NCBI GenBank assembly: GCA_028704885.1 | Contig: JAQWEN010000001.1 | Location: 109,172-173,171, forward strand | Direction: 5' to 3' | Length of the DNA: 64,000 nt | Source of the DNA: Candidatus Shapirobacteria bacterium | Lineage (GTDB): Bacteria > Patescibacteriota > Microgenomatia > UBA12405 | Shown here: one piece after another, positions 12,856 through 38,534 of the stretch | Layout: each line of letters starts with the position of its first letter | Position numbering within the stretch: the stretch's first letter is position 1 | Notes under the pieces: generated by a model | Told to the model about the DNA's origin: nothing | The model's database searches: none | What the model saw: only the letters and a program-made list of their open reading frames with translations | Translations under genes and position numbers: made by a program

Positions 12856-13061
12856 GATTTAAGCTAAGTAGAGAGAAGATTGAAGAAACTTTTTCAATAT
12901 GTTTGGCTTTTAGCCCCAATCAAAATTTGGGATTAAAAGCTGAATGGGCAACTCAATTTAGAGGCCAAGAAGAAGAACTTTAGAGCTTTAGTTCGCTAGA
13001 GCTTTAGATTTTAGAAATTAGAAATTATAATTACATTTTCGATCAAATTTAGTTTTTGAAC

Positions 13062-17777: not shown

Positions 17778-19205
17778 TTGATTATAAATTTCCCAAACAA
17801 AATGCCAAAGAAAAAAACCGATGAAGTCATCGTAGTTGAACCTGTTATTGTTCAAAACCCACCCGTTTCTGCTGTTGCAGAAACACCCTCCCTTGAAAAT
17901 GGAGGGCAAAAAAATGAACCTATTAAGACTGAAATAAAGCCAAAAGATAATAATGTGGTTAGTTTTGTGAAATCTTCTTACGCCCCTACGGGGCTTCAGA
18001 AGGACATGCCTGTTCAACAACCACAAATACAAAGACCACAATATCAACCTCAACAAGCACCAAGACCACAGGTTCATTATGCTCCACCAGCTCCAGTCCA
18101 AACTGAAACTATTGAAGGTGCATTAGAAATTATGCAGGATGGTCAAGGATTTGTGAGACCAAAATTTATTCCTAATAATAGAGATGCTTTTATCGGATCG
18201 ATGCAAATTAGACGATACGGACTTAGAGCCGGGGATATGATTTTGGGAGCAGCTAAGGCACCAAAAGAAAATGAAAAATATTGGGCAATGACAAGAATTG
18301 ATAAAGTAAATGGTTTAGATTTGGCTCAGGTTCAAAATAGACCAGAATTTAAAGATTTAGTGCCTATTTATCCGCAAAAACAGATTAAATTAGAAACTGC
18401 TTCGGATGTTTATTCAACTAGAATTATTGATTTATTTTCGCCAATTGGATTTGGACAAAGAGGAATGGTGGTGTCGCCACCTAAGGCAGGTAAAACTACT
18501 TTACTTAAAGAAATTGCAGCCGGAGTGGCAATTAATTATCCAGAGGTCCACTTGATGGCTATTTTAGTTGGAGAAAGACCAGAAGAAGTGACCGATATGC
18601 AAAGATTTATCAAAGGTGAAGTGATTGCTTCTTCTTTTGATCAAAAACCAGAAGAACAAACCAAAGCAGCGGAAATTGCCATGGAAAGAGCTAAAAGATT
18701 AGTGGAAATGGGAAAAGACGTGGTGGTTGTTTTTGATTCAATTACCAGATTAGCTCGAGCCTACAATTTAGCAATTCCGACCTCAGGAAGAACACTTTCT
18801 GGAGGTTTCGATCCAGCCGCTTTATATCCTTCAAAGAAATTTTTTGGAGCAGCTAGAAAAATTGAAAATGGTGGTTCTTTAACTATTATTGGAACTTCAC
18901 TAGTAGATACCGGTTCAAAAATGGATGAATTGATTTTTGAAGAATTCAAAGGAACTGGAAATATGGAACTTAGATTGGAAAGAAACTTAGCCGAAAGGAG
19001 AATTTTTCCAGCTTTTGATATCTTGAGATCGGGAACCAGAATGGAAAATTTACTTTTGGATCCAGCTGTAATGGCAAAAATTATTTCAATTCGTAGAATG
19101 TTTGATGCTTTGGGTAAAGCTGAAGAAACAACAGAAATGATTTTAGGGCAAATGGCCAAAACTAAAAATAATCAGGAATTTTTGGATAAAATTGGTAAAA
19201 AATAA
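17778..19205 (+). CDS. rho: Transcription termination factor Rho with a Q/P-rich N-terminal insertion
   Basis: 'RYGLRAGDMILG' lies in the RNA-binding domain. Walker A 'SPPKAGKTTLLKEIA'. 'ILVGERPEEVTDM' and C-terminal motifs are present. The low-complexity stretch is 'PQIQRPQYQPQQAPRPQ'. Confidence 0.9.
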   Translation: MIINFPNKMPKKKTDEVIVVEPVIVQNPPVSAVAETPSLENGGQKNEPIKTEIKPKDNNVVSFVKSSYAPTGLQKDMPVQQPQIQRPQYQPQQAPRPQVHYAPPAPVQTETIEGALEIMQDGQGFVRPKFIPNNRDAFIGSMQIRRYGLRAGDMILGAAKAPKENEKYWAMTRIDKVNGLDLAQVQNRPEFKDLVPIYPQKQIKLETASDVYSTRIIDLFSPIGFGQRGMVVSPPKAGKTTLLKEIAAGVAINYPEVHLMAILVGERPEEVTDMQRFIKGEVIASSFDQKPEEQTKAAEIAMERAKRLVEMGKDVVVVFDSITRLARAYNLAIPTSGRTLSGGFDPAALYPSKKFFGAARKIENGGSLTIIGTSLVDTGSKMDELIFEEFKGTGNMELRLERNLAERRIFPAFDILRSGTRMENLLLDPAVMAKIISIRRMFDALGKAEETTEMILGQMAKTKNNQEFLDKIGKK

Positions 19206-24253: not shown

Positions 24254-27200
24254 TTAGTTAATAATCCACCAGTTAATAATAATGTCTTGATCTAAATAGT
24301 TGTCTAAAGCAATAGTAAAAGAGGATTCTGATTCAGAAACAACTTTGGATTTAACGTATGGAACTTGGTTTTTGGTGGAACCGACTGGAGTGAGATAAAC
24401 CATAGAATTTGGAGTGATTTTATTATTACTAATAATTATTTCAGTTTTGCCGGCTGGAAGGGTGGCAGTGCCAGCGGTGGCATTGGAGGTTAATTGAGAA
24501 GAACTGGTAGCAATGGCACCGAAACCGGATTCAGCAATAATGGTTTGAGCACTATCAGTTGAGATTTTCAGTTTATCAGATATCAGTTCTTCAGATGTTA
24601 ATTTTTTGGTTTGGATTTCGTCGGCAGTAATTAAATTGGCCATTAAACTGCCAGAGACTTTAAGATTGCCGGTGATTTCAACTTCGCCATTTTCGGCAAT
24701 AACCAAAGTGTCGCCCATGATATGAACAGAACCAGTAGAAGATGGTTGAATGAAAAGAGCGGAGTTGGTAGTTTCAATTAAATTATCTTTAATAGCAATT
24801 TCACCAGTAGTGAAAGTGCCAGTGACAAAGGCATTACCAAGTTCGGTGTCGCCTTGGACCATAAGTTTGGCACCGACAACAAGATTATTAGTAAGAGCGA
24901 GATCGCCGTTTATTTTAGCCGAATCACTGGCAATATTCATTGACCAATCAGAAGATTGAGACATAATTGAGCTGCCAGTGATGGCAGAGGATGAGGCTTC
25001 GTTTGTAGAAATTAATTTTTTAAGTTCATCGCGGAGAGAACTAACCTTGGCGGTCATTAAATCACCAAAAGAACCTTCTTTGGAAATAATGTTGTCGGCA
25101 TATAAAGTAGATACGCTCGCTTCGCGGGCTGTCAGTTTGTCAGATATCAGTTCGTCAGTTGTTAAGGTTCCGGAAATGGTGGCAGTGGTAGCAGTTAATT
25201 CGTCAATGTTGGCTTTTGGAGAAATAATTTTTTCAGCGACTAAGTTTTTAGTAACTATATTAGTAGCGGAAATTAAACCAGCTTTGATTTTAGCGGAAGC
25301 GATTTCGGCAAATTGTCCCATGCGAGTGACAGTAGCGCCAAGAGTATCCGTTAGAGAATAAGTGGCTGCCTCGATTTCATTTTTGGCACCATCGTAACCG
25401 AGAGAAGCGAGAACTTCATCGGAAACATTATAATTGACATTAATTTCGCCAGTAGCAGTAATAGAAAGATCTTTATTGAGATTGGTAACTTTAGCATCAA
25501 CTTCTTGAATGCCACGGATGGCTAAAGGAATCATACCAATATAGTTAATACTCTTATAACCATCGCTGCCAGTATTAACGAAACTTGGAAGAATTTGTTC
25601 AACATCTTGGGCAATGAAACCGTATTGTCGTTGAGCCATCTCTTGAGGATTAGTTATACCAACTTTGTCAGCATAAGCTTGGTTCCAATTGAAACTGACT
25701 GGATTAAGACTATTAAGAACGGAAAGACTGTCAAAAATTTCAATATTAGGGTTGGAGCTAGAACCAAGTCCAATGTTAACAACATCATCTTTAAGTCGTT
25801 GATCGGAAAGCCAGCTGGTACTAGAACTCCAGTCAGGAGAATTACTAGAGTAAAAAGGTCGACCATTAGTATCCATACCAATTTGTCGATTGGCATGAGT
25901 AAAACATAATTCATCACCGTTACCGCCAGAGACAGTACATTGAGAGATTGTCCAGCTGCCGATAGTAAAAGCATCACCTTGAGCAACATAAGTATATTCG
26001 GTACTACCGTTGAAGGCACGAATACGATCAGCATGGGTATGAATGTTCCAAATGTTGGCTGTGGTTTCATCTTTAACATTGATACCACCAGCTGATTGGC
26101 TGGAAGGAGTACCAGAGATATAAAGAGCACCGCCGGTTATTTCCATTTTACCGTAGGTAGCATTAGGACTAGCGGTGCCGACACCGACATTGCCACTACC
26201 AGTAAGAGATAAAGCCATTGATTCTCCAGCATTTGGGTATGATTTAACATAAAAACTTAGATTTGTTAAATTAGCACCAGAACCACTAGCAGTGAAGGCT
26301 GATCTGGCGTAATAGCTTGTAGGTTCATTACTATAACTCCATCTTAAGTTAGGACCACTAGAGGAAATATCTAAATTTGATTGAGGATTAGTAGTTCCAA
26401 TGCCGACATTGCCACCAAGAGGATTTAACATTAAAGGAAAAGTAAAATTATCGCTTTCTCTCATTGCTTGTAGCCAAGATCCATAAGTTGGACCTCCAGC
26501 CAGAGTACCAATATGGACACCAGCGTCACCTCCTAAAAATTTTGCAACTGCATTGACAGAAGTTATTGTATTATTTTGTGATCCTTTTACGTCCAATTTA
26601 GCTCCTGGATTGGTGGTGCCGATGCCGACGAGGCCAGTATCAGTGATGATCATTCTATCAGTTGTTCCAGCGTCGGCGTTAGCAGTAGCGAATATTATGG
26701 AACCAGATCCATAATTTGCAGCTCCTCTTTTAACCCAAATTGAGGCATTGTTGGCAGTGTTACCTGTGTTTCTCCAAAATATTTGACCTAAGTTGTTATA
26801 AGAACTGCCACCAGAACTTTTTAGTGCTATATTTCCTGCAACTTCTAATTTTTCCAAAGGATTGGTGGTGCCGATGCCGACTTTGCCAGCGAAATAATTA
26901 TTTCCAGTACCGACAGTACTGATTTCACCAGCAATTTGGAAATCACCGTTACCACTTAGAGCAGCAATATTAGTGGTGGCTAGTTGCCAAATCCAACCTC
27001 GGGTGGTGGCACCAGAAAAACGATTGTATAAAGCCCAATCGTTAGTAACTGGACCATAAGTTCCATAACCAGCGGTGGCAGTGGTTTGCATTTGAGTGAA
27101 ATAACCATTACCTAATGAGCCATAATAACTGAGGGATCTATTACTGCTAGCGGTTAGTTCAATACTAGTTCCAACAACAAGAGAGGTGCCAACATTGAGG

Positions 27201-30200
27201 GAAGTAGAAATATTACCATTGCCAATAACATGTAATTTACTAGTTGGATTAGTGGTGCCGATGCCGACATAACCACCACTTGGTTGTAGAGATAAATTAT
27301 AAGCGACAGCTGTTCCACCAACATTTTGAGATTGTATAAAACCGCTTCCATTGGTTAAAATACCCGAAATTAAACCACTGTTGTTTTCGGCTAATAATCC
27401 AAATTGACCCCAATTATATCCTAGAACTGGAGAATCAGAACTATACTGCCAGACACTTAATGGATAATCATGGGCGGTGGTTCCAATGGCAACATGGCCT
27501 TCAGCAATTGTCATAGCAATAGTTTCATTAGACCAATCATTGGTTGAAAATTGAAGATGACCATATGGGGAGGCAAACCCAGACCAATCAGTATAGGATT
27601 TGATGGTTCCGGTTGGGAAATTATAGCCAGGATTGCCAGTGCGGAATTCAATGGCAGTAGCGTTACCGACAGCCATAGTGGCACTGTTATTAAGAGTTAT
27701 AACTGGACCTAGTCCAGCACTAACAGATTTTTCTAAATGGAGAAGAGTTGTTGGATTGGTGGTGCCGATACCGACATAACCTCCGGTTTTTAAAAATAAT
27801 TGATTATCCCAACCAGTAACAGCGGTACCGGCAGTAGTGGTACCACTGGAAGCAATTAATAAACCGTTAGTGAAATTTTGAATTCTTGAGGCAGCACCAG
27901 CGGTAATGTGATTGCCATTGTCGTTATAATTAAATCTAATTGAACCAATATAAGAAAGAGAAAGAGAACTATTGGTAGTGCTGGCATTGGCTGAATCTAA
28001 TCCAAATTGAGTATCGCCAACATCTAAGAATTTTTGACCAATAACATTATTACTAGCTTTAATATTACCAACAACGTCAAGTTTTTCGATAGGATTGGTG
28101 TTGCCGATACCGACATAACCAGAGGCTAGAATTCTTAAAGCTTCGACAGCACCAACTGAGAGAGATAAATTATTGGTGGTTGGTCTCCAAAGGCCAGTGT
28201 CAGTGTCGGTGATAAAAGAATATCCAGGAGCAGAAACAGTACCATTGGCAGCTAAATGAATTTTAGAAGAACTAATGACAGTGGTACCGCCAATATTAAT
28301 ATTTCCAACTACATTAAGAGAAGTACCAACTGCTAATGAAGTAGTGATATTTCCATTACCAACAACATTGAAAGTAGCAGTACCAGTAGCGCCAACACCA
28401 AATTTACCTGAAATTAAAGCATTGCCGTTAACATGGAGATTGTAAAGAGGATTAGTGGTGCCAATACCGACATAACCAGAGGCTAGAATTCTTAAAGCGT
28501 CGACAGCACCAACTGAGAGAGATAAATTATTGGTGGTTGGTCTCCAAAGGCCGGTGTCAGTGTCGGTGATAAAAGAATATCCGGGAGCAGAAACAGTACC
28601 ATTGGCAGCTAAATGAATTTTAGAAGAACTAATGACAGTGGTACCGCCAACATTAACATTTCCAACTACATTAAGAGAAGTACCAACTGCTAATGAAGTA
28701 GTGATATTTCCATTACCAACAACATTGAAAGTAGCAGTACCAGTAGCGCCAACACCAAATTTACCTGAAATTAAAGCATTGCCGTTAACATGGAGATTGT
28801 AAAGAGGATTAGTGGTGCCGATACCGACATAACCAGAAGTTCCTGGTAAAAGATTAATATCACCCGTGCTGAATGTTGTTGTAAGAGTTAAATTACCAGT
28901 ACTACCATTGTAGAGTTCTATACCACCATACGAACCAGCACCGGCATTATTCCCGTATATTGATTGGGTAGCATCTAACAAAATAGAACCTCCAGCAATA
29001 TCTAATTTTGCTCCAGGGTTGGTGGTGCCGATACCGAAATTGGTGCCGTCTGTCCAAAGATTAGAAGAATTTAAAATTATTTTGCCAGCGTTATAGGTTT
29101 GTAAGGTTAAATTACTGGAACCAAAAACTTCACCGGTATTGATGGCGATTGGGCCGGCGGTGTTAATATTGGCTCCAGTTGAATTAGTAAAATTCAAATC
29201 ATAAGCAATGGAAACATCACCGTTGGAAAGGAAAGCGGTGGGGTTATAAAAAGTATTACCGGCACTAGAGAAAGAAGCAAAAGTAGACCCAGCATCAGAA
29301 AAGGTTAAAGAGAAACCAGAGAGACCAATATCAGTATTTTGAGATAGAAGACCACCAAGACCAAAAGTAATGGAAGTTCCAGAACCAAGAGTGGTAAGAC
29401 CATTGAGACCAGTGAAACTAAGAGTAGAACCGTTACCTATGGAAAGATTATTAGCGCCAATTTTAGCAACCCAACCAAAGGAAGCATTGTTCATGAAAGC
29501 TAGATCTCCTAAAGCTCTTTTAGTAATGGTGCCATTGGAAGCAATGAAGAGAGCAGTAGTACCAACAGAAGTAACATTAGTACCAGTTAGACTAAGAGTA
29601 CCAGCAATACCAACATTATTAAGAGCTGATCGACCAGTAACAGATAAAGTACCACCAATAGAGCCATTAGTACCAACAGTAAGAGAAGTACCAACTGCTA
29701 ATGAAGTAGTGATATTTCCATTACCAACAACATGTAATTTACTAGTTGGATTAGTGGTGCCAATACCGACGTTACCATCGCCAGTAATGCGCATTTTTTC
29801 AACAGGAGAGGAAGCTGCAGTAGGGTTAACAAAGAAAGAAAGATCTATTCTATTTGCCCAACCAGTACCTGCTACAGCCGCAATACCAGCCCATTTATTT
29901 AATTCATTTGGTCCTGCTTCACTACTTATTTTTAATTTTAGACCAGCACCATAATTAGTTAAATTTGCATTTCCTTCATTTTTAATATCCTGACCCCAAA
30001 GTATTTGACTACTATCGGAGCCGGCATATACTTCTAATTCACTTGCTGGGTTGGTGGTGCCGATGCCGACATTACCTGTGTTTCTTTGAATGAATAGAGG
30101 AGTATTCCAAGATGAATCTAAGTTTCCAGCGTTACCGTTATGAATTTGAAATGATAAATCAGATGATCTTGTACTTGCAGCATATCCCGTTTGAAGAATT

Positions 30201-33200
30201 CTTGCTCCATATCCACCCATAGTACCTCCATATCCCATATAAATAGCATTTCCATTATTGTCAGCAGTATTATTATTTTGTAAATATAAAGAATTAACAA
30301 CTGCAGCATAACCACTGTCTGAAATGGTTACTAATGCAGATGTTCCATTTGTTCCCATTACACTTAATTTACTTCCTGGATTAATTGTTCCAACGCCAAC
30401 GTTGCCATCACTTCTGATAACCATTTTGGTATTGGCCAAGGTGTTGGGGGTAGCTGCTTGAGATAAACCAAAAGCTAAAAGTTCATTAGTCCCATCGTAG
30501 TATTCAAATAATCCGGCTGCTCTCATGGTGGCAGCACTATATCTGGACAATATTAGTCCAGGCCCGGGAGTATTAGAACCCGTTTGTAAGGAATAAATTT
30601 CCAATTTTTCGTTTGGACTGGTTGTCCCAATGCCTACATTGCCAGAAGTAAACTGAAGATACATAACCTCAGTAGAACCAATGTTTAAGCGAGTATTTTC
30701 AGTAAGAGCATTGCCTAATTTGAATTGATTTCCGGTACCTAAAGTAATACCGTTGCCAGCAGTGTAGACAGTCCCAGCAGGTAGTGCCACTTGACCAGCA
30801 GTAGTTAATCGTCCTTGAGCATCAACAGTGAAAGTAGGAATAGAAGTACCAGAACCAAAAGAACCAGCAGTGACAGAAGTATTAGCTAAGTTAATATTAC
30901 GACTAACACCAGTACCAGTAATACTGATACCAACTCCATTAGTAAGAGTAGTAATGAAATTACCAGTAGAACCAACACCAACAAAACCAGTACTTTCGAT
31001 ACCATCTAATAAGTCGGCATCTAGGGTGGAAGTTGAACCATCATTATTAGAATTCCAACTTTCGTACCATGATCCCCAGTTGGTGACACCTATTCCCATT
31101 CTGGTCCAAAGGTTACCATTATCGGTATAAGCGATCTGAATTGGGTAACCACCAGACATATCGGTTGTGGCCCCATATTTTCTAAAAGTTAAAACACCAT
31201 GGTAGGTACCACCATCAGACAAACCATCTGTAGTATTGGCTTTGAAATCAGCGTATAAACCGGCATCTCTATCGTCTGGATCATAGTTGTTATTACGAGT
31301 ATCGGAACTAATCATACTGTTTTCGGTTGAAGCTCGACGAGTAAAATAAGTACTGCTAACGCCATCAAGTAAATCAGCATTTAGATTTGTAACTACAGTA
31401 GTATTTTGAGCATTAGTAGCTTTAAGAGTGGTGGTGGTAAGAGTGCCGCCAACCTCAAGATTAGTAGAAAAAGAAGCATTACCAATAACTTCGAGTTTGT
31501 GAGTTGGATTAGTGGTGCCGATACCGACATTGCCAGTAGAAAGATTACCGTAAATAATTGGACTTTGATTATTACCAATATAGAGACGATCATTGTAAGC
31601 ACCAGTGGCACCATTACTATTACCGATGAAAATATTATTGGAACCAGAAGTGAGATTCATGCCAGCCTGATAACCAATAGCGATATTTGAACTTAAAGTG
31701 GTACCAGAACGAAGTGCAGACGTACCTAAAGCAGTATTATAGCTACCGCTAACATTGGCACTAAGCGAATAATGACCCAAGCTGGAGTTACTAGAACTAG
31801 TATTAGCTTGTTGTGAATAAAAACCAATAGCAGTGTTGTAACTACCACTAACATTACTATAAAGAGAGATTGTTCCAGCAGCAACATTCTGACTACCAGT
31901 GGCATTACTATAGAGAGATTTGAAGCCAAAGGCGGTATTACTACTACCACTAGTATTGGAATATAAAGCTTGATAACCAAAACCACTGCCAGAGGATGCG
32001 GTATTGGTTCTACCAACGCCAACTCCAACGAAGGTACTGTGAGATGTATCATCACTGTCGGCTCGAATTTCTAAATTAACAGTACCGTTGGCATTAAGAA
32101 TATTGAAGGCTGGAGTTGTAGAATTTATTGAAGCAACTGTTAATTTAGCAAGAGGATTAGTAGTGCCAATACCGACGTTGCCAGAATTTGGATTAATAAG
32201 AACGTCACCAAAAGCACTACCAGCTGCGTTTACACCTTGAATCATAGCTTTTGCATTAGATTGTCCCATAAGAAAACCAGCTGATGAACTCTTAAACCAA
32301 GTATTATATCCAGATGAATCATTACCTTGAAAAATGGCAGCTTTTTCATTTACATTACTAATAACTTCCAACTTCGCTCCTGGACTGGTAGTCCCAATAC
32401 CCACATTACCACTAGCATATTGCAGGTACATAACCTCAGTAGAACCAATATTTAATCGAGTATTTTGAGTTAGAGCACCACCAAGTTGAAAAATATTATC
32501 AACAGTTTTAGTAATACCGTTATTGGAATTGTAAGTAGTGCCAATAGAAGTATTGTTAATCGTAATACTTGATCCAGATTGAACAAGAGAAATACCAACA
32601 CCATTATTGAAAGTGACAGTGGAACCAGTATCAATAGCAGTAGCAGCACCACTATTAGCTTGAAGCATCCAGTTTTGATAATCATCAGCACTAGATTTAT
32701 CCCAACCAACGGTACTGATGTAACCCATCAAACCACTATTACCACTTAAGAAAGCAGCAACAGAAGAACCACCAATAGCAGTATTACTGATATTTAATGA
32801 AGCAGTAGTAGTGGTAGTACCGACAGCTAAAGAAGTAGTGAAATTTCCATTGCCAACCACATTGAAAGTAGCAGTACCAGTAGCACCAACACCAAACTTA
32901 GACACTAAACCAGTACCAGAGATCCAGAAGTTAGAAGTAGATTGAGCAGAAGCAAATTGATTTTGAATGTAACGAGTATCAAAATTAACAGTAGCTAAAC
33001 TAGTTAAATGACCTAAACCATCAAGAGTAATATCTTGAATAACAGTACCGTTACTATTATCAGAGGAAGCTTGAGAAGAAGTATCAGCATGAGAGATAGT
33101 AGTACCAACTCCAGTACCAGTAATGACCATGGAAGTACCAGCTTGAAGATTGAGATTATTTTCAAAAGCTAAAGTACCAAGAACTCTTTTGGTAACAGTC

Positions 33201-35941
33201 CCATTAGCAGCAATCATTAAAGCAGTAGTACCAGTACCAGTATTAGTACCAGTAAGAGTTAAAGTGCCACCAACCGAAAGATTACCGGCAAAAGTAGAAG
33301 TGCCAGAAACACCAATACCACCAGCAGAGATAGTTAAACCAGCAAAGAGAGGAGTCGAAGAAGTGGTTAAGTGTTGTCCAGTATTGTAAGCCAATTGAGC
33401 ATCACCAATAGAATCACCAACGATAGCAAGCGACATACCAACACCTTCACCAGCAGCTCCAGTAACTGAAATTTGACCATTACCAATAATGGTAGAAACA
33501 TAATTACCATTGGTTTGAGTACCAAGAATGACATCTCCCCAGTTAAGATCACCATGCATTAATTGATTAGCAGTTCCAGAAGTACCAATAGTTTGATTAC
33601 TAGCATTGGTTCTCAGAAGAGTATTAGCAGTAACGCCACTAAGAGTTAAAGTACCACCAACTGTAGCATTGGCAAAAGTTTGAAGTGCTGTCCAAGTATT
33701 AGTAGAGCCAAGATTAAGAGAAAAGATATTATCAGAAGATAAACTTAAACCAGCACCGGCGAGATAGGTGGTACCAATTCCAGTATCAGGAGCCCAAAAA
33801 GAATTACCTGAAGAGTCAGAAGTTAAAATATAACCATTGAAAGCGCCTTGAGTTAAAGATAAAGTGCCACCAATGGTTAAATTACCAGAGATAATATCAC
33901 CAGTTTTTTTAACAAAAACACCTTCACCTGGGTCATATTGTTGCAAACGACTATTTTTATATTGATAAATTGGATGATACTGAAAAAGTCTTATTCCAGT
34001 GGTTGAGTACATTTGACCTAGTAAAATATAGACGAAACCATCATCTGTGGTAGGAAGAGTTTGAGTCATAAAACTGGTGTAGGAAGTATTATCTAAAACA
34101 AAATTACCAGAACTATTAATGGTTCCTTTAAGATAGATTGGAAGTTGATTTGTCCATGAGGCTTGGTTGGCAGTGTAATTTAAATAGGTGGTAGCGATAT
34201 CGCTGTAAACGTTGCTGAGAGTACCATTGATAGCAATATCAGTGGTACTGGAGTAATAGAGAATAGGGGAATTAATAGTAAATTCTTGAGTGGAAACAGT
34301 TTTAGTGTTAGTAGTGCCGGTTTGTAAGGTTAAGGGATACCATTTGCCATTTGAGGCTTGCATTATAAGTTTATAATCATAAATTGCAGCACCAGCGGTA
34401 ATAGCGTTGTTCCAATACATACTGGAATAAGTATCAGTATCAGAAGTTCGTTGAGAACCCATCATTTGGTAGTAAGTGCCATCATAGTAAAGTAAAACGG
34501 TGGAACTTGATCCAATAGACATAGTAGTGGTGGAGGCATCAGTGTTTCCAAGTCTAATTTTTTTAGCTCCAGTACTATTGAGATTTAAAGTAGGAGTAGA
34601 GACTGAATTACCATTAGCAAACATGACGGAAATTAAATCACCAGGAGTGAGAGTATAGTTAGCGGGGCCAGTACCAACTTTAGCAGCTGTGGCAGCAGGG
34701 GTATTGACACTAACTTTAACCGTAACGTTACGAATTGTTCCATTGGCTTTTATATCTCCAGAAACGGTTAAAGTGCCACCGACAAAAGTATTGCCGTTGG
34801 CATCAACTGAAAAACGAGAAGCATAATTACTAGTACTGGGATTAAAATTTTGAAAATCAATGAAATTATAGCCACGATTATCATTGCCGATTTGACCATA
34901 AAAAAGATTACCGGTAGATAAATTGGAATTAGTGGCAACAATAGCATTACTGGAACCGTTACCAGTGGTATTTAATTGAATGGCGCCATTAGGATTAACT
35001 GGATCAATTTTAATATTAGCAGTAGCTAAACTATTAGTGGCAGTGAACAATAAAGCCTGACCTTCAATTCCGAGAGTGCCGGAAGTGGATTTGATAGTAG
35101 GGGAAGTTTCACTTAACTTTAGGTTACCGTTGTCATCAATAACTAGCACTGTATTTTTTAGACCGCTAGCAGATGGAGGTAGACCTTGCAAAGTTTCAGT
35201 ATTTAAAGCATAGGCAACAGTAGCGATTGGTTGACGAGGATTCATAACTTCACCACCGGCAGTGATTTCGAGCCAGACTTCAGCGTTTTCAGAAAAAACA
35301 TTTGAAGGAATAGTGGTGCCATGGCTTTGACCAATGGTGACAGAAAAGATGCCATTTTCATCTGGAATAACAGTATTACTATTGCCAGATTCGGAAGTGT
35401 AAAGGGTAGTGCCAACTCCAGTAGTGCCAACATTGTAGAGTTTAAAAATGATACCAGTGGAAGATATTATAGGATTACCAGATGAATCAGTTAAACGACC
35501 TTGAAAAGATAAAAAATGGCCACCAGTAATTGGGGAAGTGGCAGTGGAATATGCTAGATTTTTTTGAGATTGAAGAAAGGCTTGACGGTAAAGGGTAAAA
35601 CCGAGACCGGCACCAACAGCAAAGAGGATAAAAATAGCAAGATATTTTGAAACCCACCTCCCCGCTGGTGAGGGGCCTCCTCCCTTGAAAAGGGAGGATA
35701 TTCTTTTTTCTTTTAAAAAAGGTAATTTTATTTTTTTTGGTAGCCATCCCTTTTCAAGGGAGGGTGCCAGAAGGGCGGGTGGGTTTTGAGCTTCAATTAA
35801 TTTCTTTTTGACGAGAAATTTTTGGAAAGAAGAAAGAGAAGAAAGCTTACGTTGAATACTGGCATCGGAAAGATTAGTGCTTTTTAGATAAGCAGCGTAT
35901 TGATTAAAATGAGACTGATTAAATAAATTATTTAGCTCCAC
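24254..35941 (-). CDS. Giant (3,895 aa) surface protein: N-terminal integrase-SAM-like domain, TM helix, tail-fibre-like repeats, an internal Peptidase_S74-like intramolecular-chaperone domain, a helical stalk and a C-terminal 'WWIIN' domain
   Basis: More than 20 'GxVGIGTTNPxxKLxV' repeats. 'SDQRLKDDVVNI...PVSFNWNQ...YGFIAQDVEQILPSFV...GYKSINYIGMIPLAIRGIQEV' matches the endosialidase-chaperone (S74) consensus. The C-terminus is 'SESESSFTIALDNYLDQDIIINWWIIN'. The N-terminal 'YAAYLKSTNLSDASIQRKLSSLSSFQKFL' is XerC/D-core-binding-like. Confidence 0.8.
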   Translation of the reverse strand: MELNNLFNQSHFNQYAAYLKSTNLSDASIQRKLSSLSSFQKFLVKKKLIEAQNPPALLAPSLEKGWLPKKIKLPFLKEKRISSLFKGGGPSPAGRWVSKYLAIFILFAVGAGLGFTLYRQAFLQSQKNLAYSTATSPITGGHFLSFQGRLTDSSGNPIISSTGIIFKLYNVGTTGVGTTLYTSESGNSNTVIPDENGIFSVTIGQSHGTTIPSNVFSENAEVWLEITAGGEVMNPRQPIATVAYALNTETLQGLPPSASGLKNTVLVIDDNGNLKLSETSPTIKSTSGTLGIEGQALLFTATNSLATANIKIDPVNPNGAIQLNTTGNGSSNAIVATNSNLSTGNLFYGQIGNDNRGYNFIDFQNFNPSTSNYASRFSVDANGNTFVGGTLTVSGDIKANGTIRNVTVKVSVNTPAATAAKVGTGPANYTLTPGDLISVMFANGNSVSTPTLNLNSTGAKKIRLGNTDASTTTMSIGSSSTVLLYYDGTYYQMMGSQRTSDTDTYSSMYWNNAITAGAAIYDYKLIMQASNGKWYPLTLQTGTTNTKTVSTQEFTINSPILYYSSTTDIAINGTLSNVYSDIATTYLNYTANQASWTNQLPIYLKGTINSSGNFVLDNTSYTSFMTQTLPTTDDGFVYILLGQMYSTTGIRLFQYHPIYQYKNSRLQQYDPGEGVFVKKTGDIISGNLTIGGTLSLTQGAFNGYILTSDSSGNSFWAPDTGIGTTYLAGAGLSLSSDNIFSLNLGSTNTWTALQTFANATVGGTLTLSGVTANTLLRTNASNQTIGTSGTANQLMHGDLNWGDVILGTQTNGNYVSTIIGNGQISVTGAAGEGVGMSLAIVGDSIGDAQLAYNTGQHLTTSSTPLFAGLTISAGGIGVSGTSTFAGNLSVGGTLTLTGTNTGTGTTALMIAANGTVTKRVLGTLAFENNLNLQAGTSMVITGTGVGTTISHADTSSQASSDNSNGTVIQDITLDGLGHLTSLATVNFDTRYIQNQFASAQSTSNFWISGTGLVSKFGVGATGTATFNVVGNGNFTTSLAVGTTTTTASLNISNTAIGGSSVAAFLSGNSGLMGYISTVGWDKSSADDYQNWMLQANSGAATAIDTGSTVTFNNGVGISLVQSGSSITINNTSIGTTYNSNNGITKTVDNIFQLGGALTQNTRLNIGSTEVMYLQYASGNVGIGTTSPGAKLEVISNVNEKAAIFQGNDSSGYNTWFKSSSAGFLMGQSNAKAMIQGVNAAGSAFGDVLINPNSGNVGIGTTNPLAKLTVASINSTTPAFNILNANGTVNLEIRADSDDTSHSTFVGVGVGRTNTASSGSGFGYQALYSNTSGSSNTAFGFKSLYSNATGSQNVAAGTISLYSNVSGSYNTAIGFYSQQANTSSSNSSLGHYSLSANVSGSYNTALGTSALRSGTTLSSNIAIGYQAGMNLTSGSNNIFIGNSNGATGAYNDRLYIGNNQSPIIYGNLSTGNVGIGTTNPTHKLEVIGNASFSTNLEVGGTLTTTTLKATNAQNTTVVTNLNADLLDGVSSTYFTRRASTENSMISSDTRNNNYDPDDRDAGLYADFKANTTDGLSDGGTYHGVLTFRKYGATTDMSGGYPIQIAYTDNGNLWTRMGIGVTNWGSWYESWNSNNDGSTSTLDADLLDGIESTGFVGVGSTGNFITTLTNGVGISITGTGVSRNINLANTSVTAGSFGSGTSIPTFTVDAQGRLTTAGQVALPAGTVYTAGNGITLGTGNQFKLGNALTENTRLNIGSTEVMYLQFTSGNVGIGTTSPNEKLEIYSLQTGSNTPGPGLILSRYSAATMRAAGLFEYYDGTNELLAFGLSQAATPNTLANTKMVIRSDGNVGVGTINPGSKLSVMGTNGTSALVTISDSGYAAVVNSLYLQNNNTADNNGNAIYMGYGGTMGGYGARILQTGYAASTRSSDLSFQIHNGNAGNLDSSWNTPLFIQRNTGNVGIGTTNPASELEVYAGSDSSQILWGQDIKNEGNANLTNYGAGLKLKISSEAGPNELNKWAGIAAVAGTGWANRIDLSFFVNPTAASSPVEKMRITGDGNVGIGTTNPTSKLHVVGNGNITTSLAVGTSLTVGTNGSIGGTLSVTGRSALNNVGIAGTLSLTGTNVTSVGTTALFIASNGTITKRALGDLAFMNNASFGWVAKIGANNLSIGNGSTLSFTGLNGLTTLGSGTSITFGLGGLLSQNTDIGLSGFSLTFSDAGSTFASFSSAGNTFYNPTAFLSNGDVSIAYDLNFTNSTGANINTAGPIAINTGEVFGSSNLTLQTYNAGKIILNSSNLWTDGTNFGIGTTNPGAKLDIAGGSILLDATQSIYGNNAGAGSYGGIELYNGSTGNLTLTTTFSTGDINLLPGTSGYVGIGTTNPLYNLHVNGNALISGKFGVGATGTATFNVVGNGNITTSLAVGTSLNVVGNVNVGGTTVISSSKIHLAANGTVSAPGYSFITDTDTGLWRPTTNNLSLSVGAVDALRILASGYVGIGTTNPLYNLHVNGNALISGKFGVGATGTATFNVVGNGNITTSLAVGTSLNVVGNINIGGTTVISSSKIHLAANGTVSAPGYSFITDTDTGLWRPTTNNLSLSVGAVEALRILASGYVGIGNTNPIEKLDVVGNIKASNNVIGQKFLDVGDTQFGLDSANASTTNSSLSLSYIGSIRFNYNDNGNHITAGAASRIQNFTNGLLIASSGTTTAGTAVTGWDNQLFLKTGGYVGIGTTNPTTLLHLEKSVSAGLGPVITLNNSATMAVGNATAIEFRTGNPGYNFPTGTIKSYTDWSGFASPYGHLQFSTNDWSNETIAMTIAEGHVAIGTTAHDYPLSVWQYSSDSPVLGYNWGQFGLLAENNSGLISGILTNGSGFIQSQNVGGTAVAYNLSLQPSGGYVGIGTTNPTSKLHVIGNGNISTSLNVGTSLVVGTSIELTASSNRSLSYYGSLGNGYFTQMQTTATAGYGTYGPVTNDWALYNRFSGATTRGWIWQLATTNIAALSGNGDFQIAGEISTVGTGNNYFAGKVGIGTTNPLEKLEVAGNIALKSSGGSSYNNLGQIFWRNTGNTANNASIWVKRGAANYGSGSIIFATANADAGTTDRMIITDTGLVGIGTTNPGAKLDVKGSQNNTITSVNAVAKFLGGDAGVHIGTLAGGPTYGSWLQAMRESDNFTFPLMLNPLGGNVGIGTTNPQSNLDISSSGPNLRWSYSNEPTSYYARSAFTASGSGANLTNLSFYVKSYPNAGESMALSLTGSGNVGVGTASPNATYGKMEITGGALYISGTPSSQSAGGINVKDETTANIWNIHTHADRIRAFNGSTEYTYVAQGDAFTIGSWTISQCTVSGGNGDELCFTHANRQIGMDTNGRPFYSSNSPDWSSSTSWLSDQRLKDDVVNIGLGSSSNPNIEIFDSLSVLNSLNPVSFNWNQAYADKVGITNPQEMAQRQYGFIAQDVEQILPSFVNTGSDGYKSINYIGMIPLAIRGIQEVDAKVTNLNKDLSITATGEINVNYNVSDEVLASLGYDGAKNEIEAATYSLTDTLGATVTRMGQFAEIASAKIKAGLISATNIVTKNLVAEKIISPKANIDELTATTATISGTLTTDELISDKLTAREASVSTLYADNIISKEGSFGDLMTAKVSSLRDELKKLISTNEASSSAITGSSIMSQSSDWSMNIASDSAKINGDLALTNNLVVGAKLMVQGDTELGNAFVTGTFTTGEIAIKDNLIETTNSALFIQPSSTGSVHIMGDTLVIAENGEVEITGNLKVSGSLMANLITADEIQTKKLTSEELISDKLKISTDSAQTIIAESGFGAIATSSSQLTSNATAGTATLPAGKTEIIISNNKITPNSMVYLTPVGSTKNQVPYVKSKVVSESESSFTIALDNYLDQDIIINWWIIN
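28091..28806. repeat. Near-identical tandem duplication of about 357 bp (2 x 119 aa) inside the giant-protein gene
   Basis: The DNA block from aggattggtgttgccgataccgacataaccagaggctagaattc to ggagattgtaaagagg recurs with a handful of point differences. The protein segment 'SGYVGIGTTNPLYNLHVNGNALISGKFGVGATGTATFNVVG...ALRILA' is repeated. Confidence 0.8.
35649..35697. repeat. RPE-like repeat (family 1), reverse-type unit, translated in-frame in the giant protein N-terminus
   Basis: aaacccacctcCCCGCTGGTGAGGGGcctcctcCCTTgaaaAGGGagga encodes '...SSLFKGGGPSPAGRW...'. Confidence 0.65.
35744..35786. repeat. RPE-like repeat (family 1), forward-type unit; it forms an inverted pair with 35649-35697
   Basis: ccatCCCTTttcaAGGGagggtgccagaagggcgggtgggtttt encodes '...NPPALLAPSLEKGW...'. 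Confidence 0.65.
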
Positions 35942-36356
35942 TTTCTACCCAATTTATAAATTGATGAATATCATTGATATAGTTACGAATAGTCGAAATG
36001 GAGAATTTTTTGGTTTCGAGCTGCTGTTGATATTGACTAATAATATTTTCAAGGTTAGTTTGTGGTTGAACTTTGAGAGCTTTGAGAAAAGGATTTTCAG
36101 AAATTAAATGTTGGTCTAAAGCAAATTGAAAGAATTTAGAGAGAGAGGCAAGAAAACGTTTATAGTTTTGGTCTTGATTAATGTTTTGAAAATAGGAAGT
36201 TAAATTATCTTGATTAAAAATTTGATCAGTTAATTGATTTTCATCTGGATTAGTAAAGAGAAAGTATTTTCGCAAATCCATTAAGTAGTTTCTGATAGTG
36301 GCATCAGAGTAAGACTTGGACAGAAGCCAATTTTTATAAGAATTGACTATTTCCAT
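35928..36356 (-). CDS. Protein made only of phage-integrase N-terminal (SAM-like/core-binding) domains, two tandem copies, with no catalytic domain
   Basis: 'YKNWLLSKSYSDATIRNYLMDLRKYFLF' and 'LETKKFSISTIRNYINDIHQFINWV' fit the XerC/D N-domain pattern f..yL....S..Ti..Y...l..f..f. There is no R..HxxR..Y catalytic region. It overlaps the giant-gene start by 14 nt. Confidence 0.6.
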   Translation of the reverse strand: MEIVNSYKNWLLSKSYSDATIRNYLMDLRKYFLFTNPDENQLTDQIFNQDNLTSYFQNINQDQNYKRFLASLSKFFQFALDQHLISENPFLKALKVQPQTNLENIISQYQQQLETKKFSISTIRNYINDIHQFINWVESGAK

Positions 36357-37114
36357 AACCAGACGAAGGTGGCGGCGATGATTAAAAAAGGAACTAACTT
36401 TTCGGCCATCAGATTGAGGTCGAATTTTTTCTGCGGTGATAAAGATTTAGGTTCGAAATTATATGTTTTATACATGGTTTATATATATTAATTATTAATA
36501 TAATAATAATATCTACTATTAGAAAAAGGCTGTCAATAGGCCATTTTTGATGTTTTGATGATCTATTTTGATAGTAGGAAAAGAGGATTTAGGTCGTAGA
36601 TTATAGATCTTAGATATTTTCACAAGAGATAACACAGCGGGTACACCTACTTACAAACGATATCATTTAAAATCAAATACATTCTTTTTGAAGATGTATA
36701 TTTTATTATCAATGCGGAGATATGCGGTTTACTCTAAAAGATATTAATTGATATACATATGTGGTGGAAAGATGATTTTATTTGAAACCCTAACTCTGCT
36801 TTTTCCCTTGATAAGGTAAGAGATTTTTTTGACTTCATCACTTGTCAAAGGAGAGCAAAAAAGAAGTTTAAATTGAATTCATTTGATATATAGGGTAGTA
36901 GATGGTAGTAATTTGTTATCTTCTTTGAAGAATTTGAGGCATAAATATTATTTATATGTATATTTTTTATTTTTGCGAGTCTAAATTAAATGATTATTGT
37001 GCCTAATTTAGCGAATCTTATTTGTTTTTCAAATGATTAGCACTTTTAAATAAATTGTGCCAAATGAGATATTTTGATGTTTGTTTTTTTAATTTTGTGC
37101 TATTATTTACTAAG

Positions 37115-37926: not shown

Positions 37927-38241
37927 ATGGCTTATGAAATATGTATTTTAAAGGTTGAAGAGTTTAAAAAGTTTGTTAATAAATTAGATTGTGATGGTAA
38001 AGCAAGATTGACTAGAGACATAGATTTCTTAAAAGAAAATGGATCCGGTTTAAAGATGCCATTTGCCAAAAAGATTGATAAAAAGCTTTGGGAATTAAGA
38101 ACCAGTGGTAAACAAAAAATTAGAATTATTTATTCTATTGTAGGGACTCAAATATATGTGGTTAATTGGTTTATTAAAAAAACACAAAAAACTCCGATTA
38201 AAGAATTAAAGACAGCAATTAAGCGATTGACAGAGATATAG
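37927..38241 (+). CDS. RelE/ParE-superfamily toxin of the Gp49/HigB-like type
   Basis: '...KKLWELRTSGKQKIRIIYSIVGTQIYVVNWFIKKTQKTPIKELKTAIKRL' matches Gp49-like (PF05973) toxins. The toxin-first gene order is as in higBA. Confidence 0.6.
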   Translation: MAYEICILKVEEFKKFVNKLDCDGKARLTRDIDFLKENGSGLKMPFAKKIDKKLWELRTSGKQKIRIIYSIVGTQIYVVNWFIKKTQKTPIKELKTAIKRLTEI

Positions 38242-38246
38242 CGTTT

Positions 38247-38534
38247 ATGCTATATTATTTTATGGATAACTGGCAAACAATAAAAAAAGAAATATTAAGC
38301 AATTCTGAAGTAAAAAAGACCTATGATGGGTTAGATGTGGAGTATCAGATATTAAGTGATATGGTTAGAATTAGAAATAAAAAGAAAATTACCCAAAAAG
38401 AGTTAGCAAAAAAGATGGGAACAACCCAGTCGGCTTTGTCGAGATTTGAAATGGGGGATGTAAACCCTAGTTTGGATTTTTTAAAGAAAGTGGCAATTGC
38501 TTTGGGAAGTAAATTGGTGGTGAGATTGGAATAA
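38247..38534 (+). CDS. XRE-family HTH antitoxin (HigA-like)
   Basis: 'ITQKELAKKMGTTQSALSRFEMGDVNPSLDFLKKVAIALG' is a helix-turn-helix. The gene lies 5 nt downstream of the toxin gene. Confidence 0.6.
   Translation: MLYYFMDNWQTIKKEILSNSEVKKTYDGLDVEYQILSDMVRIRNKKKITQKELAKKMGTTQSALSRFEMGDVNPSLDFLKKVAIALGSKLVVRLE

What the first reader, a model, noticed from the sequence alone, without database searches (positions are those of the whole stretch)
35640..36356. Integrase N-terminal (SAM-like, core-binding) domains without a catalytic domain: two tandem copies in a standalone ORF and a third fused ahead of the TM helix of the giant protein
35928..36356 encodes two copies of the XerC/D-type N-terminal DNA-binding domain and nothing else. 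The giant gene that overlaps it by 14 nt begins with a third copy ('YAAYLKSTNLSDASIQRKLSSLSSFQKFL'). Two RPE-like repeats translated in-frame and the first TM helix follow. No tyrosine-recombinase catalytic region (R..HxxR..Y) is present anywhere nearby. A DNA-binding module at the cytoplasmic N-terminus of a giant surface protein is unexpected. It could be a degraded integrase remnant of a prophage that delivered the tail-fibre gene. It could instead be a regulatory or anchoring adaptation.
Basis: partly seen in the sequence, partly recalled or inferred. Interest (0 to 1): 0.6.

Follow-up and report, generated by a model that had tools for sequence, protein, structure and literature searches.

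The report
Split integrase-type domain on giant fibre
A small gene and the start of a neighbouring giant surface-fibre gene together encode two integrase-type DNA-binding domains with no recombinase part, and the second domain is cut in half between the two genes, a split kept in dozens of related uncultivated bacteria, so the halves probably click together inside the cell.

Summary
The integrase N-terminal (SAM-like, core-binding, "CB") homology is real, but there are two domains, not three. The 142-aa ORF (35928-36356, minus strand) holds one complete CB domain plus helices A-B of a second. The 3895-aa giant ORF (24254-35941, minus strand) starts with helices C-D of that second domain. A variable linker carrying a GC-rich palindromic repeat, one TM helix and a fibre-like ectodomain follow.

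The split is not a sequencing error, a pseudogene or a prophage remnant. The same cut point occurs in 36 related Microgenomates loci and in 5 of 5 distant relatives examined. Reading frames and spacers differ (-17 to +164 nt, including in-frame stops). Both halves are conserved. Single-ORF (unsplit) versions also exist. No recombinase catalytic domain lies anywhere in the window, and the neighbouring genes are cellular and syntenic.

Best reading: a two-gene module. The small cytoplasmic protein docks on the giant protein's cytoplasmic tip by completing the four-helix CB bundle. This gives a membrane-tethered, non-catalytic, DNA-binding-type unit. Docking is inferred, and DNA binding is untested. 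I found no description of it in the papers searched.

The parts
36347..36475 (-). 42-aa micro-protein gene (MYKTYNFEPKSLSPQKKFDLNLMAEKLVPFLIIAATFVWLWK). It has a C-terminal TM helix and overlaps the start of the small CB gene by 10 nt. It is probably the first gene of the operon.
   Evidence: ORF. tblastn finds it directly upstream of the small gene in about 35 related loci at 46-90% identity, including the unsplit locus L033.
35928..36356 (-). Small gene of 142 aa. It encodes CB domain 1 plus the first half of CB domain 2.
   Evidence: A 33-member family alignment has invariant residues in both parts. AlphaFold2 mean pLDDT is 89.6.
36111..36344 (-). Complete core-binding (SAM-like) domain 1, residues 5-82.
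   Evidence: Covers Pfam PF02899 profile positions 2-82 of 83. Four helices at 2-13, 18-35, 49-59 and 65-81. Foldseek: XerD 1a0p, probability 1.00, rmsd 2.8 A over 92 columns; also lambda Int CB domain 2oxo.
35943..36053 (-). Helices A and B of CB domain 2 (residues 102-138), the last structured part of the small protein.
   Evidence: Covers PF13495 profile positions 3-34 of 85 only. Helices at 102-115 and 120-138, pLDDT about 97.
35801..35920 (-). Helices C and D of CB domain 2 (giant residues 8-47), the cytoplasmic N-terminus of the giant protein.
   Evidence: Covers PF02899 profile positions 44-83 of 83 only. Mean column conservation over 36 loci is 0.64 for giant residues 1-52, against 0.22 for the linker.
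35650..35786 (-). 137-nt GC-rich palindromic repeat element (two inverted double-hairpin arms). It is translated in frame within the variable cytoplasmic linker (NPPALLAPSLEKGW ... SSLFKGGGPSPAGRWV).
   Evidence: Inverted repeats I1 and I2. RNA fold -64.4 kcal/mol, z = -7. It belongs to a dispersed family in the window. It is absent from the same place in the closest relatives L001 and L002.
35588..35644 (-). Single transmembrane helix (YLAIFILFAVGAGLGFTLY, giant residues 100-118).
   Evidence: Read directly from the sequence. The preceding linker has net charge +7, so the positive-inside rule puts the N-terminus in the cytoplasm. Column conservation is 0.62.
24254..35941 (-). Giant gene of 3895 aa with a GTG start. 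It encodes half a CB domain, a linker, a TM helix and a fibre-like ectodomain.
25577..25807 (-). Peptidase_S74 domain (intramolecular chaperone of tail fibres and endosialidases), residues 3379-3455.
   Evidence: Pfam E 5.1e-12.
24257..24856 (-). Conserved C-terminal 200 aa ending in NWWIIN. It is shared with the unsplit relatives.
   Evidence: blastp E 1e-20 to 7e-14 against the C-terminal ends of L047, L044, L055 and L048. The last 80 aa also match the short complete proteins P0050 and P0053.
36473..36567 (-). Conserved promoter/operator block directly upstream of the 42-aa ORF. TTGACAGCCTTTTTCTAATAGTAGATA (36510-36536) is nearly invariant in 14 loci (one substitution in L002).
   Evidence: (found in 39 loci). 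No conserved RNA structure, so it acts at the DNA level.
36615..36665 (-). Conserved upstream block 3 (TTG[AT][TA]AGTAGGTG.ACC...GTGTTA...GTGAAA).
   Evidence: Found by nhmmer in 20 loci in the same order and spacing.
36710..36781 (-). Conserved upstream block 2 (..ATCA.TTAATATCTTT.. and the invariant CCGCA..TCTCCGCA at 36713-36727).
   Evidence: Found by nhmmer in 20 loci.

Best explanation
This is a conserved two-gene module of Microgenomates (Patescibacteria/CPR) bacteria. It is not a broken gene and not a phage remnant.

Shown:
- The small gene makes a soluble 142-aa protein with one complete integrase-type core-binding (CB) domain plus helices A-B of a second.
- The giant gene starts, 14 nt before the small gene's stop, with helices C-D of that second domain.
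- A short basic linker, one TM helix and a roughly 3770-aa fibre-like ectodomain follow. The ectodomain contains a Peptidase_S74 chaperone domain and a conserved C-terminal domain.
- There is no recombinase catalytic domain.

Inferred:
- The giant is a type II membrane protein, with its N-terminus in the cytoplasm and the fibre outside.
- The overlapping genes are translationally coupled.
- The small protein docks on the giant's cytoplasmic tip. Helices A-B pack against helices C-D to rebuild the four-helix CB bundle.
- Each fibre subunit therefore carries a non-covalently attached tandem CB module at the inner face of the membrane.

Most speculative step:
- The tandem CB module keeps the ancestral activity of CB domains, which is DNA binding without cutting.
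- It would then tether DNA to the fibre's base or act as a membrane-bound regulator in the manner of ToxR.
- The nearly invariant operator-like blocks upstream of the operon are candidate targets.

The confidence of 0.55 refers to the conserved two-gene module with reassembly of the split domain. I put the DNA-binding step alone at about 0.35.
For: Domain arithmetic:
- Searches show 1.5 + 0.5 domains.
- In-silico concatenation gives an end-to-end PF02899 match in the window (E 3.9e-12). It does the same in four distant lineages (E 3e-9 to 8e-15). The giant N-termini alone match only profile positions 39/40 to 81/83.

Fold:
- The AlphaFold2 model of unsplit relative P0057 has two four-helix domains with pLDDT above 90. 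The cut point maps just after helix B of domain 2.
- Foldseek top hits are XerD, lambda Int CB domain, XerA, IntI and Brujita Int.

Conservation of the split:
- 36 of 40 related loci show a small gene immediately followed by a giant gene cut at the same point. The other loci end at contig edges.
- Frame differences are 0, 1 and 2, and three loci have in-frame stops.
- Start codons ATG, TTG, GTG or CTG sit at the homologous position, in most loci 30 aa before RKLSS. Overlaps are typically -11, -14 or -17 nt.
- In 5 of 5 distant giants that start with the half domain and have upstream sequence available, the upstream gene encodes 150-170 aa of CB domain 1 plus helices A-B. Junction distances are -10, +1, +15, about +130 and +164 nt.

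Selection:
- The small-protein family has invariant residues in both parts.
- The giant's half domain scores 0.64 in column conservation, against 0.22 for the linker.

Fusion and fission (Rosetta-stone logic):
- Single-ORF versions exist: L033, P0094, and the Levybacteria loci L041-L048 and L055. They have the same TM and ectodomain start and a homologous C-terminus.
- In an NJ tree, the two unsplit members of the window's clade are nested among split ones.

Topology and context:
- The linker before the TM helix carries net charge +7.
- Neighbouring genes are cellular and syntenic.
- The DNA blocks upstream of the operon are highly conserved and show no RNA structure.
Against: - No direct test of docking was possible.
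- AlphaFold2 models the small protein confidently on its own, so helices A-B might be stable without a partner.
- The domains are not markedly basic. Net charges are 0 for domain 1, 0 for half 2a and +4 for half 2b. This gives little independent support for DNA binding.
- Conserved upstream DNA blocks occur at many operons and may be bound by an unrelated regulator.
- Relatives carry 0.5, 1, 2 or possibly 3 CB units on the giant protein itself (that typing is noisy). A strict 1.5 + 0.5 stoichiometry is therefore not universal.
- The NJ tree has no support values.
Confidence: 0.55

Rival explanations
1. The two proteins do not reassemble. The small protein is an independent soluble factor, for example a DNA-binding regulator of the operon or a chaperone for the giant. 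The giant's two N-terminal helices are merely a conserved cytoplasmic cap or retention signal.
For: AlphaFold2 gives the small protein high confidence by itself. Some distant relatives have a 130-164-nt spacer between the genes, so expression could be uncoupled. Relatives carry variable numbers of CB units.
Against: The cut falls inside a compact four-helix domain at the same loop in every lineage seen. Both halves keep the canonical core motifs. Concatenation restores an end-to-end profile match in each case. Fused and split forms interconvert. In every locus examined that had upstream sequence, the half-type giant had the partner gene next to it.
Confidence: 0.2
2. The module reassembles as proposed, but the CB fold has been re-used for protein-protein contacts rather than DNA binding. 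Possible roles are clustering fibre bases, or recruiting secretion or glycosylation machinery.
For: Net charge of the domains is about neutral. There is no catalytic partner domain to form the DNA clamp. In real recombinases CB domains also make protomer-protomer contacts (general knowledge).
Against: The signature residues of the CB family are retained in both domains (T-I-[RK]-N-Y..D in helix B and R-[KR]-L-S-S-L..F in helix D). The only established activity of this fold is DNA binding.
Confidence: 0.3
3. One gene is interrupted by a sequencing or assembly error or a recent frameshift. Removing one A from the GAAAG run at 35943-35945 restores a single ORF, so the small ORF would be an artefact or pseudogene fragment.
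For: Deleting one A gives an uninterrupted 4033-aa ORF with a complete second domain.
Against: The same split appears in 36 independently assembled loci and 5 distant ones, with different frames, in-frame stops, real spacers and conserved start codons.
Confidence: 0.03
4. Programmed +1 ribosomal frameshifting or stop-codon bypass joins the two ORFs into one protein.
For: In most close relatives the giant is in the +1 frame with a short overlap. Several relatives use weak start codons (GTG, TTG, CTG).
Against: Other relatives have frame differences of 0 or 2, in-frame stops followed by ATG, or spacers up to 164 nt. In the window a TAG two codons upstream of the GTG closes the giant's frame, which leaves only a 7-codon shift window with no recognisable slippery site.
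Confidence: 0.05
5. A degraded integrase left by a prophage that delivered a tail-fibre gene.
For: The domain family is typical of phage integrases. The giant protein has a Peptidase_S74 tail-fibre chaperone domain.
Against: No phage genes, tRNA gene or att-like boundary were found. Synteny with cellular genes holds across many genomes. Both halves are under purifying selection. The phage collection gives only weak Xer N-terminus matches. NCBIfam's best families are XerC and XerD.
Confidence: 0.03

Closest known systems
Core-binding (N-terminal SAM-like) domain of XerC/XerD-type tyrosine recombinases (Pfam PF02899, PF13495, PF13102)
   Same: Same four-helix fold and signature motifs. Profile E-values reach 1e-17, and Foldseek hits XerD, lambda Int CB domain, XerA and IntI.
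   Different: There is no catalytic domain anywhere. The domain is duplicated in tandem. It is attached to a membrane-anchored giant fibre. The second copy is encoded in two pieces by two genes.
ToxR/CadC/TcpP-type bitopic membrane-bound DNA-binding regulators
   Same: Same topology: a cytoplasmic N-terminal DNA-binding-type domain, one TM helix and an extracytoplasmic C-terminal part. This is the closest analogy for how the module might work.
   Different: The DNA-binding fold differs (CB four-helix bundle rather than OmpR-type winged helix). The outside part is a roughly 3770-aa fibre, not a small sensor domain. DNA binding and regulation are untested here. A separate subunit completes the DNA-binding module.
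Phage tail-fibre and endosialidase-like trimeric fibres with a Peptidase_S74 intramolecular chaperone
   Same: The ectodomain carries an S74 domain. Its start has the LSFQGRLTD..G.PI motif that is shared by about 1200 cluster representatives.
   Different: It is chromosomally encoded, membrane-anchored by an N-terminal TM helix and has a cytoplasmic domain. It is not part of a virion.
Naturally split proteins that reassemble (for example split DnaE inteins) and Rosetta-stone fused/split gene pairs
   Same: Adjacent genes encode complementary fragments. Fused versions exist in other genomes.
   Different: The break lies inside a small domain of about 85 residues rather than between domains. No splicing chemistry is implied.
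Rickettsia palindromic elements (RPEs) and other REP/MITE-like repeats that insert in frame into genes
   Same: A dispersed GC-rich palindromic repeat is translated in frame within a tolerant linker. Related peptide stretches turn up at several positions in homologues.
   Different: It is an unrelated sequence family in an unrelated phylum. Most copies in the window sit just after gene ends, like terminators.

Membership tests
Tyrosine recombinase / phage integrase (XerC/D type) | N-terminal core-binding (SAM-like) four-helix domain | tested here: met
   Pfam E 7.7e-12 for the small ORF and 2.3e-17 for the joined sequence. Foldseek hits XerD and lambda Int CB domain.
Tyrosine recombinase / phage integrase (XerC/D type) | C-terminal catalytic domain with the R..HxxR..Y active site (PF00589) | tested here: not met
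   tblastn with five complete Xer proteins matches only their N-terminal domains, at 35612-36353, and nowhere else significantly in the 64 kb. No PF00589 hit appeared in the giant or in 9 neighbouring proteins. This is therefore not a recombinase.
Tyrosine recombinase / phage integrase (XerC/D type) | Association with a recombination site or mobile element (att/dif site, prophage) | tested here: not met
   No tRNA gene or prophage genes nearby. The locus is syntenic in many genomes.
ToxR-like membrane-bound one-component regulators | Bitopic N-in topology with a cytoplasmic DNA-binding domain before a single TM helix | tested here: met
   CB module, then a linker with net charge +7, then one TM helix. 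Topology is inferred from the positive-inside rule.
ToxR-like membrane-bound one-component regulators | OmpR-type winged-helix DNA-binding domain | tested here: not met
   The fold is an integrase CB four-helix bundle.
ToxR-like membrane-bound one-component regulators | Sequence-specific DNA binding and transcriptional control | not testable with these tools
   Only circumstantial: conserved operator-like DNA blocks upstream of the operon.
Split (two-gene) CB module on fibre proteins, the family proposed here | Small gene encoding CB domain 1 plus helices A-B, lying directly upstream of a gene that starts with helices C-D, then a TM helix and the LSFQGRLTD ectodomain start | tested here: met
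   Met in the window, in 36 related loci and in 5 distant loci.
Split (two-gene) CB module on fibre proteins, the family proposed here | Physical reassembly of the two halves | not testable with these tools
Reassembly is inferred from conservation and from fused relatives.
Rickettsia palindromic elements | Sequence membership in the RPE families of Rickettsia | not tested
   Only the behaviour is similar (in-frame palindromic insertion). Rfam gave no family at gathering score.

The most novel reading that the evidence does not exclude
The most novel reading my evidence does not exclude has these parts:
- Across much of the candidate phyla radiation, giant host-contact fibres are wired to the cell's DNA.
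- A soluble 1.5-domain protein completes a half domain on the fibre's cytoplasmic tip.
- This forms a membrane-tethered tandem CB DNA-binding unit.
- The unit binds the nearly invariant operator array upstream of its own operon and possibly other sites.
- Assembly or release of the small subunit would then couple events at the cell surface, such as host attachment or fibre tension, to gene expression.
- That would be a new type of split, contact-sensing one-component system built from an exapted recombinase domain.
Probability: 0.15. Interest if true: 0.85.

Novelty: new variant of a known kind. Interest (0 to 1): 0.62.

Why it matters
**Protein evolution.** Gene fissions usually fall between domains. 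A break inside an 85-residue domain that is kept at the same loop in dozens of lineages, with fused forms alongside, is a clean natural case of fragment complementation.

**A recombinase part without recombination.** It shows the DNA-binding half of tyrosine recombinases re-used without any recombination chemistry, on the cytoplasmic end of some of the largest proteins of ultra-small episymbiotic bacteria. How these cells sense and hold on to hosts is largely unknown. A cytoplasmic DNA-binding-type module on their giant fibres gives a concrete, testable link between the surface and the genome.

**Annotation.** These small genes are now labelled 'site-specific integrase' or 'XerD'. That label wrongly suggests mobile elements.

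Tried and rejected
- **Complex model.** I tried a fused or linker-joined chain in structure prediction to model the complex. I modelled an unsplit relative and the small protein separately instead.
- **Combined alignment.** A MAFFT alignment of unsplit, small and giant sequences placed the giants' half domain against domain 1. I did not use it for modelling and built A3 without the giants.
- **PDB sequence search.** The joined module gave only marginal hits (2key 'putative phage integrase', E 0.12). Fold comparison was needed.
- **Structured RNA upstream or in the palindrome.** Rfam found nothing meaningful. RNAalifold on 14 loci gave -1.7 kcal/mol and no covariation. I rejected an RNA element and read the blocks as DNA sites.
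- **Regulon check.** The upstream motifs are not repeated elsewhere in the window in an informative way.
- **Regex and HMM typing of 0.5, 1 and 2 CB architectures** among the 150 best representatives is noisy. P0106, P0113 and P0080 were mis-typed. I use only hand-checked cases.
- **Literature.** Five searches or look-ups found no description of this architecture.
- **Prophage idea.** Rejected, as set out under the rival explanations.

Full report
**1. What is in the sequence.**

On the minus strand there is an ATG ORF of 142 aa at 35928-36356. A GTG ORF of 3895 aa lies at 24254-35941. The two overlap by 14 nt, and the giant is in the +1 frame relative to the small ORF.

Pfam places small-ORF residues 5-82 on positions 2-82 of the 83-position Phage_int_SAM_1 profile. 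Residues 107-138 fall only on positions 3-34 of 85 of Phage_int_SAM_4. Residues 8-47 of the giant fall only on positions 44-83 of 83 of Phage_int_SAM_1. NCBIfam's best families are XerC and XerD.

Deleting one A from the GAAAG run at the junction gives a continuous ORF. Its second domain then matches the profile end to end (positions 1-83; whole-protein E 2.3e-17; the domain alone gives 3.9e-12).

tblastn with five genuine Xer recombinases hits only their N-terminal domains, at 35612-36353. One of them runs through both frames in order. No catalytic domain appears anywhere in the 64 kb. Pfam on the giant and nine neighbours finds Peptidase_S74, TPR, Big_1, Laminin_G_3/DUF2341 and a Gp49/HTH toxin-antitoxin pair, but no integrase core and no phage genes.

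The giant has no ATG, GTG or TTG in its first 150 codons other than the GTG at 35941. A TAG closes its frame two codons upstream.

**2. The split is conserved, so it is not an error.**

A protein search returned two kinds of relatives. One kind is a standalone protein of about 180-220 aa that ends just after ..T-I-[RK]-N-Y-[IL]-N-D-I-x-Q-F-I-[ND]-W. The other is the N-terminus of a giant protein that begins M-(about 10 aa)-QYAAYLKS..LS.ASI.RKLSSL.SFQKFLVKK. The 33-member small-protein alignment has invariant residues in both domain 1 and the half domain.

A scan of one genome per species returned 58 loci. In L001-L040 (Shapirobacteria- and Woesebacteria-type MAGs) the small gene is always directly followed by the giant gene, cut at the same point. 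Loci that end at a contig edge are the only exceptions.

- The frame difference is 1 in most loci, but 0 or 2 in others.
- Three loci have an in-frame stop followed by ATG.
- The giant's start lies 30 aa before RKLSS in most loci. The codon at that position is ATG, TTG, GTG or CTG.
- The start typically overlaps the small gene's stop by 11, 14 or 17 nt.

Column conservation over 36 loci is 0.64 for the giant's half domain, 0.62 for the TM helix and 0.70 for the ectodomain start. It is only 0.22 for the linker.

**3. The arrangement reaches far beyond the close relatives.**

An exhaustive HMMER search with giant residues 1-230 found 1186 cluster representatives. The best 35 or so start at residue 1 with the half domain and are 800-5500 aa long. 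Many much more distant giants (35-40% identity) also start with helices C-D only.

In all five such cases where upstream DNA was available (L059, L060, L062, L063, L064), the upstream gene encodes 150-170 aa. That protein is CB domain 1 plus helices A-B, ending right after the helix-B motif. Junction distances are -10, +1, +15, about +130 and +164 nt. Joining the two pieces in silico restores an end-to-end PF02899 match in four lineages (E 3e-9 to 8e-15). The giant N-termini alone match only the second half.

**4. Unsplit versions exist.**

L033 and P0094 are single ORFs with two complete CB domains, then the TM helix and the same ectodomain start. The Levybacteria loci L041-L048 and L055, and proteins P0045-P0062, have the same layout.

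The last 200 aa of the window's giant (ending NWWIIN) are homologous to the extreme C-termini of the Levybacteria proteins (E down to 1e-20). Even short complete family members of 397-420 aa keep the last 80 aa. The whole architecture is therefore shared.

In an NJ tree of the TM and ectodomain-start region, the window's clade is split-type throughout, apart from P0091 (the L033 type) and P0094. Those two are nested separately among split members, which suggests secondary fusions. The tree has no support values, and the automatic typing is noisy. Other family members carry one complete CB domain on the giant (P0113, P0121).

**5. Fold.**

AlphaFold2 on unsplit P0057, with a 47-sequence alignment, gives two four-helix domains with pLDDT mostly above 90. 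Their helices are 3-13, 18-39, 50-62 and 67-86, then 110-119, 124-149, 164-176 and 181-201. The cut point of the split genes maps just after helix B of domain 2.

The window's small protein models at mean pLDDT 89.6. It shows four helices of domain 1 and two further helices at 102-115 and 120-138. Foldseek against the PDB puts XerD (1a0p; probability 1.00; rmsd 2.8 A over 92 columns) first. Lambda Int core-binding domain, XerA, integron integrase and several standalone 'integrase-like domain' NMR structures follow. The P0057 model hits IntI, Brujita Int, Tn1549 Int and Cre. E-values are modest because the domain is small, but the hit list is consistent.

**6. Topology and the repeat.**

After the half domain comes a 46-residue linker with net charge +7. 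The helix YLAIFILFAVGAGLGFTLY follows, then AYSTATSP..LSFQGRLTDSSGNPI. By the positive-inside rule the CB module is cytoplasmic and the fibre is outside.

The linker contains a 137-nt palindrome at 35650-35786. Its two arms have the form AAACCCACC, short hairpin, CCTCCCTTGAAAAGGGAGG. As RNA it folds at -64.4 kcal/mol (z = -7). The same double-hairpin unit occurs at 976, 3915, 5351, 7406, 17887 and 37590, which makes 8 core matches against 0.12 expected. Most of these copies sit just after ORF ends.

The closest relatives lack the element at this site. In other relatives the same kind of sequence, translated as NPP..SL.KGG..PFFKG..RGV, forms the small protein's C-terminal tail, parts of the giant's linker, or loop insertions in domain 1. 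The element sits in the least conserved part of the protein, and in many relatives at the split junction itself. It may therefore have caused the fission. That is my inference.

**7. Context.**

The locus is chromosomal and syntenic. A divergent Big_1 gene, a LamG-rich 1292-aa gene and a TPR gene recur around the module in relatives, including distant ones.

A 42-aa ORF at 36347-36475 overlaps the small gene's start. It encodes a cytoplasmic head plus a TM helix and is conserved in about 35 loci, including unsplit L033.

It does contain three blocks that are almost invariant between genomes whose proteins are only about 45-50% identical:
- TTGACAGCCTTTTTCTAATAGTAGATA. This is a -35-like TTGACA followed by a spacer that is itself invariant.
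- TTGATAGTAG-type motifs in both orientations.
- CCGCA..TCTCCGCA.

RNAalifold finds no structure and no covariation, so these are DNA-level promoter or operator elements.

**8. Interpretation.**

Shown:
- There are two CB domains and no catalytic domain.
- The second domain is encoded by two adjacent genes.
- The arrangement is ancient or recurrent, and under selection.
- Fused forms exist.

Inferred:
- Translational coupling, from the short overlaps and weak start codons.
- N-in topology.
- Non-covalent completion of the four-helix bundle, which tethers the small protein to the fibre's cytoplasmic tip. This is the simplest way to explain three observations together. A cut inside a compact domain is tolerated. 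Both halves keep the canonical core motifs. Fusion and fission both occur.

Speculative:
- The tandem CB module binds DNA, which is the only known activity of the fold. It would work like a ToxR-type membrane-bound regulator or a nucleoid tether.
- The conserved operator array may be its target.

The near-neutral charge of the domains and the lack of any binding data keep this last step weak.

The alternatives of sequencing error, programmed frameshift and prophage remnant are contradicted by the variable frames and spacers, the in-frame stops, the synteny and the weak phage matches.

**9. Novelty.**

Searches of the held literature found nothing on catalytic-less or split CB domains on membrane or giant proteins of CPR bacteria. 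The giant-gene preprint that came up does not mention integrase-like domains. Databases name these genes 'site-specific integrase' or 'XerD'.

I rate it a new variant of known kinds: a CB domain, and a bitopic protein with a cytoplasmic DNA-binding-type domain. It has an unusual, well-supported twist, the conserved intra-domain gene split. Its function remains open.

Noticed in passing
window 36347-36475 (-): Conserved 42-aa micro-protein gene with a cytoplasmic head and a TM helix (..AEKLVPFLIIAATFVWLWK). It overlaps the start of the small CB gene and is present in about 35 related loci, including the unsplit one. It is likely a third subunit or operon partner.
   Followed up: partly
window 36473-36781: Three nearly invariant non-coding DNA blocks lie upstream of the operon: TTGACAGCCTTTTTCTAATAGTAGATA, TTGATAGTAG-type motifs in both orientations, and CCGCATATCTCCGCA. 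They are conserved in 14-39 loci with fixed order and spacing. No RNA structure or covariation was found, so they are probably a promoter plus operator sites for an unknown regulator.
   Followed up: partly
window 976, 3915, 5351, 7406, 17887, 35650-35786, 37590: Dispersed family of GC-rich double-hairpin repeats of about 45 nt (AAACCCACC, hairpin, CCTCCCTT....AAGGGAGG). Most copies lie just after ORF ends, like terminators. One palindromic pair lies inside the giant gene, and one copy (17887) lies inside or at the start of ORF 17778-19205.
   Followed up: partly
window 7490-13178: Partial rRNA operon: tRNA-Ile (7490-7564), tRNA-Ala (9681-9756), 23S rRNA (9929-12896) and 5S rRNA (13062-13178). 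Two protein ORFs (7611-8771 on the plus strand, 8768-9412 on the minus strand) sit between the two spacer tRNAs, which is unusual.
   Followed up: no
L011:6505-6520 and L016:5745-5760: In two relatives the giant gene has no ATG, GTG or TTG at the conserved start position but does have CTG there. This suggests CTG initiation or termination-reinitiation coupling.
   Followed up: partly
P0094 (residues about 720-1040) and L064 giant gene (P0201): Some homologous giant fibre proteins carry an intein. There is a Hint-like CVTGDS...HNT insertion in P0094 and a Pfam Intein_splicing hit in the L064 giant gene.
   Followed up: no
window 37927-38534 (+): A Gp49/HigB-like toxin gene and an Xre-HTH/HigA-like antitoxin gene lie between the Big_1 gene and the LamG-rich 1292-aa surface protein gene. 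The pair is also present near the module in some relatives (L013).
   Followed up: no
loci L005-L012 and others, L026, L040: Many contigs carrying this clearly Microgenomates-type module are deposited under unrelated names ('uncultured Gammaproteobacteria', 'Balneolaceae', 'Candidatus Methanoperedens'). These are likely binning or labelling errors in public MAGs.
   Followed up: no
P0113, P0121, P0050, P0053: The family has architectural variants. Some giants have one complete CB domain. Some complete members of 397-420 aa consist of little more than two CB domains, a TM helix and the conserved C-terminal NW[LW]I[IV]N domain. Levybacteria-type members have an extra conserved juxtamembrane motif (RPNWYKKYH).
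   Followed up: partly
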